DNA from: Eledone cirrhosa
Lineage: Eukaryota
Assembly: GCA_964016885.1 (NCBI GenBank)
Contig: OZ024750.1
Coordinates: 27,652,001-27,716,000, forward strand
Reading direction: 5' to 3'
Length of the DNA: 64,000 nt
The notes below the pieces were generated by a model. The model saw only the letters and a program-made list of their open reading frames with translations, was not told the origin of the DNA and ran no database searches. A program made the position numbers and the translations under genes. Positions 48,426 through 49,759 of the stretch are shown here, in pieces. Every line of letters starts with the position of its first letter. The first letter of the stretch is position 1.

Positions 48426-48621
48426 GTAGATAAATCTACCAAGAGTTTACGGTAGTGTCCAATCCGTATGAAGAACTCAATGTATTCCGGATATCATGGA
48501 AAGAAGAGATGTAATGAAAAATCACTTTCGGTGAAAAATAAACGGTATACAGAGTCAAGATAAAATATTAAACAAATAATGAATAAACAATGAGACAGTT
48601 CCTTATATTAAACAAAAAAAG

Positions 48622-48775
48622 TTCATTATTTAACGATCGTTTCTAGGATATATATGTGTTAGAATTGGCATGCATATTCAACAGATCTATGTACAAAATT
48701 ATACAAAATTATACAAACTATCAAGATTAAATATACATACCAACACATATATACGCCGTCTTCAGAAATAATGAA
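48622..48775 (-). ncRNA. Hammerhead ribozyme with 115-nt stem II (mirror copy)
   Basis: Reverse complement of 48847-49000. Confidence 0.75.
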
Positions 48776-48846
48776 GTATATTTATTGATAATAAATAAAT
48801 ATCAATAAATATACTTATCAATAAATATACTTATCAATAAATATAC

Positions 48847-49000
48847 TTCATTATTTCTGAAGACGGCGTATATATGTGTTGTTATGTATATTTAATCTTG
48901 ATAGTTTGTATAATTTTGTATAATTTTGTACATAGATCTGTTGAATATGCATGCCAATTCTAACACATATATATCCTAGAAACGATCGTTAAATAATGAA
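48847..49000 (+). ncRNA. Hammerhead ribozyme with 115-nt stem II
   Basis: ttcattattt-CTGAAGA-[...tatatatgtgttg...taacacatatata...]-GAAA-cgatcg-TT-aaataatgaa; 10-bp stem I, palindromic stem III ACGATCGT. Confidence 0.78.
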
Positions 49001-49759
49001 CTTTTTTTGTTTAATATAAGGAACTGTCTCATTGTTTATTCATTATTTGTTTAATATTTTATATATATATATATATATATAACCGTATCTCAAACGGAAA
49101 TACATGGCTCGCATTCCTTGATAACATATATACAACCCCACAAACTATAGTTTCTATAAGTGTCATTAACGTTCAAATAGTTCTTCGGACGAAATAACAT
49201 TGGGGCGGGGGGAGGTATAAATCAGATAAGGGAAGACCAAGAACAACTTTGTCAGGACAAACTCGTCAATGCCATCAGCTCAAATTTGACACAAGCAATA
49301 ACCTTTAAGAAGGTTTCGCCAGACTCCGCCTGTCTCGCCTCGGAGCCGATAACCGTTCGGTCGTCGCCGTCCTTCGGCTTCGCAAGGTATGTACTAACCT
49401 GCTCGAAAAATAAAATGTGCGGAAAAGAGGGATACATTTCTGAGGAGAAAGGACTAAAGAAGTTTTCTGATATGAAATATTGTGTTGAGAAACCCTCTAT
49501 GTGTTTGCTCAACTTGCAAGATATAGCAGTTACATCTTACTTCAATCATATATAGTCGCTTTAAAAAAATGGAAGGACACATTAGCCAATGTAATCCTAG
49601 GTAACTCTAAATTGAAAGGGTAGGCTGCTTAACAAGAACAACCACAACAATATGCACCCCCATAATTAGATCCTTGTATCATACATGACACACAAGGACA
49701 TCCTGGATGGTTTGTTACTGAGATTCAACTGAATTCAGTTAAGCGTTCCAGGATTGTAC

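What the first reader, a model, noticed from the sequence alone, without database searches (positions are those of the whole stretch)
48560..49062. Bidirectional ribozyme palindrome: long-stem-II hammerheads on both arms
The 232-bp arms each carry a hammerhead whose core halves are separated by 115 nt, closed by tatatatgtgttg/taacacatatata, with a 10-bp stem I. A transcript from either strand contains a ribozyme preceded by its full antisense copy, so the hairpin should compete with the catalytic fold. The spacer consists of reiterated 16-nt copies of the arm end, a footprint of repeated re-priming. Standard length-limited searches would miss this motif.
Basis: partly seen in the sequence, partly recalled or inferred. 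Interest (0 to 1): 0.78.

Follow-up and report, generated by a model that had tools for sequence, protein, structure and literature searches.

The report
Penelope retroelement with oversized hammerhead ribozyme
The palindrome is one of over a thousand short head-to-head insertions of a young Penelope-like retrotransposon whose hammerhead ribozyme motif carries a conserved stem of about 100 bases, and the copies' junctions suggest that each insertion is likely built from two separately primed DNA copies of the element's RNA start.

Summary
The palindrome is real (231 of 232 bases) but is neither unique nor a stand-alone device. It is a short inverted insertion, in a (TA)n run, of a young Penelope-like element (PLE) with Hydra-clade protein motifs (813-aa RT plus GIY-YIG-type ORF in full copies). 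The left arm runs 134 nt beyond the reported start. The long-stem-II hammerhead is the family's normal ribozyme: 9,545 matches genome-wide (control 0), 97-116 nt inserts, and four compensatory pair changes in a sister family. Published Hydra hammerheads have 3-10 nt loops, so this form appears undescribed. Family statistics point to a mechanism: 1,116 tight palindromes join just 5' of the core, 50 of 100 arms stop exactly 7 nt upstream (likely the capped RNA start), and the two outer ends are almost always two different fixed sites, sometimes with non-overlapping arms. This favours twin priming over fold-back. Cleavage, transcription start and a possible intron inside stem II are untested; no RNA run was available. 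Known kind of element, new ribozyme variant, useful test case.

The parts
48399..48425 (.). (TA)n target run, left flank
   Evidence: sequence
48426..48559 (-). Tail of the left arm, present on this arm only; ends at fixed site B (+343 from core C3)
   Evidence: 99.7% match to family over 48423-48794; same end in 15 of 56 arms listed
48560..48794 (-). Left arm: pLTR copy from site A (+206) to -29
48622..48775 (-). Left type I hammerhead motif with 115-nt stem II; predicted cleavage after 48632; matches the family's commonest variant
48795..48830 (+). Junction filler: 6-nt fragment, 14-nt partial and 16-nt full copy of the right arm's 5' end (-26 to -11)
   Evidence: covered at low depth by read-derived contigs of run X1
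48831..49062 (+). Right arm: pLTR copy from -26 to fixed site A (+206), no tail
48847..49000 (+). Right type I hammerhead motif: stem I 48847-48856/48991-49000, core 48857-48864 and 48979-48982, palindromic stem III, predicted cleavage after 48990
48864..48978 (+). Long stem II (115 nt), a rod of several helices conserved across subfamilies
48850..48850 (+). Position -7 (mirror 48772 on minus): where family arms stop most often; inferred capped transcription start. This copy's arms run past it
   Evidence: inferred, no RNA data
48882..48887 (+). Splice-donor-like hexamer inside stem II; its first G is mutated in this arm, intact in the left arm (48740-48735, minus)
   Evidence: present in 95 of 96 sampled arms; intron untested
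49039..49048 (+). Second copy of the stem I 5' strand; predicted decoy that pairs with the stem I 3' strand
   Evidence: predicted only
49060..49081 (.). (TA)n target run, right flank
   Evidence: sequence

Best explanation
The feature is a short head-to-head insertion, into a (TA)n run, of a young high-copy Penelope-like retroelement with Hydra-clade motifs, each arm being a copy of the element's terminal repeat with the family's long-stem-II hammerhead motif, and it was likely made by two separately primed reverse transcripts joined at their ends. Shown: family membership, copy number, the two fixed outer ends A and B, the A-plus-B rule, the pile-up of inner ends at -7, and conservation of the long stem. 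Inferred: the element's endonuclease cuts both strands of a (TA)n run; one free end primes cDNA internally at site A and the other at site B of uncleaved element RNA; most cDNAs run to the RNA's 5' end, likely a capped start 7 nt upstream of the ribozyme core; the two cDNA 3' ends are joined through 1-2 nt of A/T homology, sometimes after rounds of slip-back synthesis that leave reiterated ends as here. This copy's arms reach -29 and -26, so its template likely began upstream of the usual start. The ribozyme is likely functional but weak or conditional (dimer- or protein-assisted, as for other PLE hammerheads), and would be locked out in any read-through transcript of this palindrome. The locus itself is most likely an inert by-product.
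For: Family: 2,074 exact 28-mer matches, control 0; 9,545 matches to both core halves 97-116 nt apart, control 0. Full copies carry an 813-aa ORF; the 55 best-scored genomic matches are 99-100% identical and 53 have no stop. Motifs RWR, DKT, YRDD, CxCX5C, YIG, CxxC, CxH, no GxKF/Y fit the Hydra definition. Ends: 24 of 29 head-to-head pairs in a positional sample are A+B, 3 A+A, 0 B+B, 2 unclassified; 40 of 44 close junctions A+B, 4 unclassified; 47 of 50 by script, two more A+B on inspection; the three sets share loci. In 4 of the 44 the B arm lies in the tail only, so neither arm can be a copy of the other; the window holds another such case at 4306-4385. Inner ends: 1,116 palindromes join 5' of the core against 15 at the cleavage site and 123 at about +150; in the first 50, 50 of 100 arms end at exactly -7 and 93 at -3 to -7; next to a -7 end the first inserted cDNA base is C in 8 of 18 cases, as copying a cap would give. 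Stem II: 98.4% of cells pair in 33 sequences against 20-62% for slid controls; a sister family at 97 of 144 identity keeps the same stem base with 4 two-sided changes; position 17 varies between U and A. Literature: internal initiation at two sites, extension of both target strands and uncleaved RNA as template were shown in vitro for another PLE (PMC11167929).
Against: No RNA evidence of any kind: start site, cap, cleavage and splicing are inferred. Within the main family covariation is weak (1 pair with a two-sided change; 19-27 of 500 shuffles reach the observed values), and the compensatory changes rest on one sister-family locus. The isolated arm's hammerhead fold is predicted 3 kcal/mol above its best fold and 11 kcal/mol above once the downstream decoy is present. 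The two arms share the same stem II variant in 11 of 15 pairs (chance 3.5%), which fold-back also predicts. The -7 edge could be a DNA nick site instead: SINE copies sit at the same position with variable duplications. The three palindrome counts used patterns of unequal strictness; the cleavage-site pattern misses an older subfamily. This copy's arms do not stop at -7 (only 4 of 100 sampled arms end 12-60 nt upstream). Pfam gave no significant hit for the protein and no tree with named Hydra proteins was built.
Confidence: 0.72

Rival explanations
1. Same element, but the palindrome arises by fold-back or self-priming: one cDNA snaps back at its A/T-rich end and copies itself, or an antisense RNA self-primes, and the endonuclease trims one arm to leave the tail on one side.
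For: Proposed for rotifer Penelopes (PMC3846280, passages); tail ascribed to endonuclease resolution (PMC8557442). Arms share private variants in 11 of 15 pairs. Many junctions are near-perfect palindromes with 2-nt overlap.
Against: Junctions whose B arm is tail-only or shorter than the A arm (L081, L140, L141, L179; also L101, L152, L171; window 4306-4385) cannot come from copying one arm; shared variants also follow from one donor RNA.
Confidence: 0.15
2. The long stem II is mainly a retained 5' UTR intron or promoter region rather than a ribozyme part: a donor at +25 splices either to the AG just before the second core half, rebuilding a short hammerhead, or to an AG near the ORF start, removing sites A and B from the mRNA. 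This can coexist with the best explanation.
For: Donor-like hexamer in 95 of 96 sampled arms and in the sister family; branch-like CTAAC in 60 of 96; the unspliced 500-nt leader holds 10 ATGs. Penelope and Chlamys-3 have a start site in the pLTR and a 5' UTR intron; the D. virilis hammerhead abuts an intron end.
Against: No spliced genomic copy among 11 short-gap hits or 17 donor-altered hits, although PLEs are known to keep introns. The donor is also part of a helix, so its conservation is ambiguous. Folds after removing the candidate intron in silico are marginal. Compensatory changes pair exon and intron sides, which argues for the unspliced fold.
Confidence: 0.3
3. A locus-specific, selected bidirectional ribozyme switch in which the antisense arm regulates cleavage.
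For: The hairpin is predicted to out-compete the catalytic fold by about 186 kcal/mol; a GC-box/TATA-like stretch lies about 140 nt downstream (sequence).
Against: Over a thousand equivalent palindromes; near-identity to the youngest subfamily; one private mutation that breaks a stem II pair; no sign of conservation of this locus.
Confidence: 0.04
4. Assembly artefact (false inverted duplication).
For: Perfect palindromes can be read or assembly artefacts (general knowledge); no long read was laid across the locus.
Against: Arms end at two different family-defined sites, differ at one base and have unique filler; X1 contigs cover the filler at depth 8-76 against 10^5-10^6 on the arms (X1 may be the source sample); the tight junction type appears as loose ends in runs of three other organisms (X5, X7, X8).
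Confidence: 0.03

Closest known systems
Hydra clade of C-terminal EN+ Penelope-like elements (Craig et al. 2021, PMC8557442; passages, sections 10 and 11, supplement part 2 seen)
   Same: RWK-type, DKT, CxCX5C, CxxC and CxH motifs; C-terminal endonuclease; (TA)n target; hammerhead with an extra base after A9 and before GAAA, near-palindromic stem III, GUH site including GUU; inverted 5' copy with a hammerhead on both strands (Penelope-13_HM); tail on one end only.
   Different: All 26 Hydra rows of the published table have stem II of 3-7 bp with 3-10 nt loops, and the longest loop II in the table is about 35 nt; here the insert is 97-116 nt. Unit length is about 6.8 kb against under 3 kb, tail 137 nt against 30-40 nt. 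The published Hydra-1_oBim hammerhead is a different sequence.
Poseidon element of Anolis (Frangieh et al. 2024, PMC11167929; parts 1-2 of 4 of the text seen)
   Same: Two internal RT start sites bounding the tail, both target strands extended, A/T-rich target, uncleaved RNA as template, protein-assisted hammerhead.
   Different: There the start site did not differ between strands in vitro; here genomic insertions pair one A end with one B end. Different clade; hammerhead there overlaps the ORF start, here it lies about 490 nt upstream.
Metazoan PLE minimal hammerheads acting as dimers (Cervera and de la Pena 2014, PMC4209133, parts 1-2 of 4 seen; review PMC6765202, passages)
   Same: Type I topology in the pLTR, bulged base after A9, short palindromic stem III, opposite-strand pairs 100-700 bp apart noted in Schistosoma.
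   Different: Their stem II is 6-8 bp; position 10.1-11.1 is G-U or A-U here (G-C in the sister family) followed by a C-C mismatch.
Adineta vaga Penelopes with palindromes at inverted junctions (Arkhipova et al. 2013, PMC3846280; passages seen)
   Same: Head-to-head inverted pLTRs, optional tail, palindromic junctions, Inr-like motif in the pLTR.
   Different: Explained there by self-priming; few copies. Here over a thousand junctions include non-overlapping arms that self-priming cannot make.
Non-LTR retrozymes (bioRxiv 10.64898/2026.07.22.740005, part 1 of 5 seen)
   Same: Non-coding, PLE-derived, type I hammerhead.
   Different: Retrozymes are head-to-tail tandem monomers; this is a head-to-head pLTR pair of an autonomous family.

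Membership tests
EN+ Penelope-like element | Single ORF with RT and C-terminal GIY-YIG endonuclease | tested here: met
   813-aa ORF in full copies with YRDD at 346 and VY..YIG core at 693-709; nearest Atlas clusters carry HTH_animal, GIY-YIG and RVT_1; Pfam scan not significant. The window copy itself has no ORF.
EN+ Penelope-like element | Pseudo-LTRs in partial tandem and inverted arrangement | tested here: met
   Tandem repeat at 6,788-nt spacing in L045 and inverted arms in many loci.
EN+ Penelope-like element | Tail on one end of the insertion | tested here: met
   137-nt tail on one arm; longer than the 30-40 nt described.
EN+ Penelope-like element | Hammerhead motif in the pLTR | tested here: met
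Hydra clade | RWK motif, DKT instead of DKG, no GxKF/Y | tested here: met
   RWR at 37, DKT at 115, no GxKF/Y match (against definition).
Hydra clade | CxCX5C linker; CxxC and CxH beside the conserved E and N | tested here: met
   CxCX5C at 673, CxxC at 771, CxH at 799.
Hydra clade | CCHH finger absent from the endonuclease core | tested here: inconclusive
   No CxxC inside the core, but cysteines at 696 and 705 and histidines at 722 and 724 are present.
Hydra clade | Insertion into (TA)n | tested here: met
   Both flanks here and nearly all listed ends.
Hydra clade | Generally under 3 kb with a canonical short hammerhead (described as typical, not diagnostic) | tested here: not met
   6.8-kb unit; stem II insert 97-116 nt against 3-10 nt loops.
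Hydra clade | Placement in the Hydra clade on an RT tree | not tested
   No tree with named Hydra proteins was built; assignment rests on motifs.
Type I hammerhead ribozyme | Core CUGANGA and GAAA, A15.1-U16.1 pair, non-G at 17, three helices | tested here: met
   core letters were part of the search patterns, so their invariance in my samples is not evidence.
Type I hammerhead ribozyme | Match to an Rfam hammerhead model | tested here: not met
   0 matches at gathering scores in the 64-kb window; expected with a 115-nt insert.
Type I hammerhead ribozyme | Self-cleavage after the NUH triplet | not testable with these tools
   No assay; no RNA run listed.
Non-LTR retrozyme | Head-to-tail tandem monomers each with a hammerhead, no coding partner in the unit | tested here: not met
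   Head-to-head pair of an ORF-bearing family.
MITE or other DNA transposon | Identical fixed termini (terminal inverted repeats) with fixed internal length | tested here: not met
   Two different ends and inner lengths from 8 nt to over 11 kb.

The most novel reading that the evidence does not exclude
This family records the full PLE insertion cycle: a capped RNA starts 7 nt upstream of a hammerhead whose 100-nt stem II carries an intron donor, a downstream decoy keeps the 5' ribozyme off, an RT dimer primes once at site A and once at site B on the two cut target strands, and the two run-off cDNAs are joined head to head. Splicing would remove both priming sites, which would explain why PLE copies keep their introns. 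About 10,000 hammerheads of this form would have escaped length-limited searches in one genome.
Probability: 0.25. Interest if true: 0.75.

Novelty: new variant of a known kind. Interest (0 to 1): 0.5.

Why it matters
How PLEs make their inverted structures and what their hammerheads do are stated open questions (PMC8557442). This young family offers over a thousand junctions with two fixed priming sites and a sharp inner edge, giving exact RNA coordinates for an in vitro test of twin priming against fold-back. The ribozyme shows that PLE hammerheads can carry a 100-nt stem II under apparent pairing constraint, so families scored as lacking a hammerhead with 7-17 nt spacers (the setting used in PMC8557442) deserve a re-search. 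The palindromes are also a large potential source of long double-stranded RNA in the host (inference). The single locus is ordinary.

Tried and rejected
Rfam scan of the window: nothing. Pfam on the family protein: nothing significant; Pfam on 41 of 175 window ORFs: two sub-threshold hits, no host gene identified. Short-stem ancestor of this hammerhead: 11 hits with 8-90 nt gaps (control 4); 8 are deletion derivatives, 2 are short hammerheads of other families, 1 is probably chance. Spliced genomic copies: none among 17 donor-altered hits. Excess of copies starting at the cleavage site: not seen (15 against 123 at a nearby control position; patterns not equally strict). SINE copies at -7 as support for a transcript start: rejected, they look like ordinary SINE insertions with variable duplications. 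RNA evidence: no RNA holder listed. Runs X8 and X9 each gave a single contig at depth 2-4, so they say nothing on range beyond presence. Earlier findings of the scan: none in three look-ups. Literature: searches listed no report of a PLE hammerhead with a stem II of this length or of an A-plus-B rule; I read only the papers named, the library lacks most subscription papers, Repbase and Dfam entries could not be checked, and only part 2 and search passages of the 59-part supplement of PMC8557442 were seen.

Full report
Observation. The inverted repeat is present as described: arms 48560-48791 and 48831-49062, 39 nt apart, matching at 231 of 232 positions; the right arm has a private T at 48882. 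Each arm reads, pointing outward, as a type I hammerhead: stem I 5' strand, CTGAAGA, 115 nt, GAAA, a short palindromic stem III, a GUU site at 48988-48990 and the stem I 3' strand. Rfam reports nothing in the window. The 115-nt insert folds as a rod far more stable than shuffles (z -5.7, 0 of 200). Positions below are counted from core C3 as 0.

It is a repeat. The genome is a 3.0-Gb animal assembly; its likeness to cephalopod genomes is my recollection and was not tested. A 218-nt query gave 537 candidates, the 41 listed matches at 100% rounded identity. A 28-mer across the core occurs 2,074 times (control 0), and a pattern needing both core halves occurs 9,545 times (control 0), 10,422 with a looser pattern (control 2). 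Aligned to a full copy, the window element spans about 48426-49062 between two (TA)n runs: the left arm runs from -29 to +343 and the right arm from -26 to +206.

The parent element. Longer copies contain an 813-aa ORF about 490 nt downstream of the hammerhead, then a long microsatellite-rich 3' region and a second hammerhead 6,788 nt after the first. The 55 best-scored matches to this protein are 99-100% identical, 53 without a stop, so the family is young. Pfam gave no significant hit; the nearest Atlas clusters carry HTH_animal, GIY-YIG and RVT_1. The protein has RWR, DKT, YRDD, CxCX5C, a VY..YIG core, CxxC and CxH, and lacks GxKF/Y, which is the published description of the Hydra clade of Penelope-like elements, including (TA)n targeting (PMC8557442 section 11). 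The absence of the CCHH finger is not clean, and no tree was built. Inverted 5' copies, a one-sided tail and pLTR hammerheads are standard for PLEs, and Penelope-13_HM is listed with a hammerhead on both strands. Ribozymes on both arms are therefore expected, not new.

The ribozyme. What differs is stem II. In the 26 Hydra rows of the published table it has 3-7 bp and a 3-10 nt loop. Here 96 arms from the first 52 Mb of contig 1 have inserts of 97-116 nt in 52 distinct variants (the pattern allowed 93-120). On 33 of these sequences, chosen to span subfamilies, the hammerhead structure pairs in 98.4% of cells against 20-62% when slid, and subfamily changes are mostly A-U to G-U, but only one pair shows a two-sided change and 19-27 of 500 shuffles reach the observed values, which is weak. 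A sister family found at one locus (L206, 97 of 144 identity, 103-nt insert) keeps the same base geometry, two pairs then a C-C mismatch, with four two-sided changes in the next seven pairs and G-C at 10.1-11.1; a matching loose end appears in run X6. No short-stem ancestor was found: of 11 hits with shorter gaps, 8 are deletions, 2 belong to other families, 1 is probably chance. I infer that the long stem is maintained. Activity is another matter. The catalytic fold is predicted 3 kcal/mol above the best fold for 48847-49000, and about 11 once the RNA extends past +185, where a second copy of the stem I 5' strand (49039-49048) captures the 3' strand. PLE hammerheads are reported as weak, dimer-dependent (PMC4209133) or protein-assisted (PMC11167929).

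How the palindrome was made. Outer ends fall at two fixed sites, A (+206) and B (+343); both end in AU on the RNA, matching a (TA)n primer (inference). In the positional sample of 100 arms, 24 of 29 head-to-head pairs are A+B, 3 are A+A, none B+B, 2 unclassified (p about 2e-5 for 24 of 27). Among 44 close junctions 40 are A+B and 4 unclassified; among the first 50 tight palindromes 47 by script and two more on inspection, the last being the sister family. These sets share loci (22 of the 50 were already held). In four junctions the B arm lies in the tail only while the A arm is long (L081, L140, L141, L179), and the window holds a 80-nt example with wholly separate arms at 4306-4385. One arm cannot be a copy of the other there, which excludes fold-back or self-priming (PMC3846280) for those events and favours two primed cDNAs, in line with two-site internal initiation and extension of both strands shown in vitro for a Poseidon element. 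Against this, arms share their stem II variant in 11 of 15 pairs (chance 3.5%); that fits one donor RNA but also fold-back.

The inner edge. 1,116 palindromes join within 24 nt just 5' of the core (control 1), against 15 at the cleavage site and 123 near +150 (control 7); the patterns differ in strictness. In the first 50, 50 of 100 arms end at exactly -7, 93 between -3 and -7, 7 beyond. In the positional sample 45 of 100 arms end within 11 nt, 4 at 12-60 nt and 51 further (6 of the 23 at -7 abut a SINE). For one subfamily 625 arms have a non-family base at -8 against 2,074 with the family base. Position -7 is the A of a TCA-TT, an initiator-like motif (recalled consensus), PLE start sites are reported inside the pLTR, and the first inserted cDNA base beside a -7 end is C in 8 of 18 junctions, as copying a cap would give. 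I infer a capped start at -7 and run-off cDNAs from uncleaved RNA. A DNA nick site at -7 remains possible, since 466 SINE ends sit at the same position with variable duplications. The window copy is atypical in passing this edge by about 20 nt. Its filler is one full and one partial extra copy of -26 to -11 plus a 6-nt fragment, each jump needing only two bases of homology; similar reiterations occur in L096, L100, L120, L129 and L227. RT slip-back and host end-joining both fit.

A possible intron. A donor-like hexamer lies at +25 in 95 of 96 sampled arms and in the sister family, the unspliced leader holds 10 ATGs, and AG candidates lie at +79, +123 and +458. Penelope and Chlamys-3 have such a 5' UTR intron. 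No spliced copy was found and no RNA run was available, so this is a lead only. The window's one private change hits the donor's G in the right arm.

Is it real DNA? Contigs of run X1 cover the filler at depth 8-76 against 10^5-10^6 on the arms (X1 may be the source sample), and the tight junction type appears as loose ends in X5, X7 and X8, labelled as other organisms. No long read was examined.

Verdict. A real feature, correctly read as a hammerhead pair, that is an ordinary short insertion of a PLE family. The element type and its inverted form are known. The 100-nt stem II, the 137-nt tail, the strict A-plus-B pairing and the -7 edge were not found in the papers I searched and make the family a good test case for PLE mechanism. 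Confidence in the retroelement origin is about 0.95, in twin priming with a start at -7 about 0.7, in measurable self-cleavage about 0.65. Novelty: new variant of a known kind. Interest 0.5.

Noticed in passing
window 4306-4385: An 80-nt insertion of the same family in a (TA)n run: a short A-ended arm joined to a tail-only B arm, with no shared sequence.
   Followed up: yes
window 16400-16581 and 16709-16890: Two tandem copies of an older-subfamily insertion, each a roughly 9-nt B stub joined to an A arm lacking the first core half.
   Followed up: partly
window 19676 (+), 58124 (+), 58984 (-), 2259 (-): Four further type I hammerhead-like motifs with CTGATGA cores, 26-46 nt stem II and near-palindromic stem III; those at 2259 and 58124 resemble each other and probably belong to another repeat family.
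   Followed up: partly
L206 (G000:C1:41497930-41498790): Sister family with a 103-nt stem II, compensatory changes at the stem base and the same tight junction 5' of the core.
   Followed up: partly
L197-L205, L087; SINE also at window 46894-47085 and 51394-51588: 466 places where a SINE 3' end abuts position -7 of the pLTR, with variable duplications; L203 holds three SINE units in tandem each followed by the pLTR start.
   Followed up: partly
L040 and L041 (G000:C1:30692600-30706100): An A+A pair flanked by a 1-kb inverted copy (98.8%) of a second Hydra-like family, probably a later inverted duplication of the region.
   Followed up: partly
L082 and L083: Short canonical hammerheads of other families with the same palindromic stem III; L083 also sits in a tight head-to-head palindrome joined just 5' of stem I.
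   Followed up: partly
window 49200-49395: GC-box and TATA-like motifs followed by a GC-richer stretch ending in a splice-donor-like site, about 140 nt from the insertion; possibly a host first exon. No protein match.
   Followed up: no
L037:2997-5756: A LINE-type ORF (endonuclease plus RT by appearance) nested inside one family copy.
   Followed up: no
L045 ORF residues about 470-575: Asn/Thr/Lys-rich low-complexity insert between the RT thumb and the endonuclease linker, recalling the N-rich inserts described in rotifer Penelopes.
   Followed up: no
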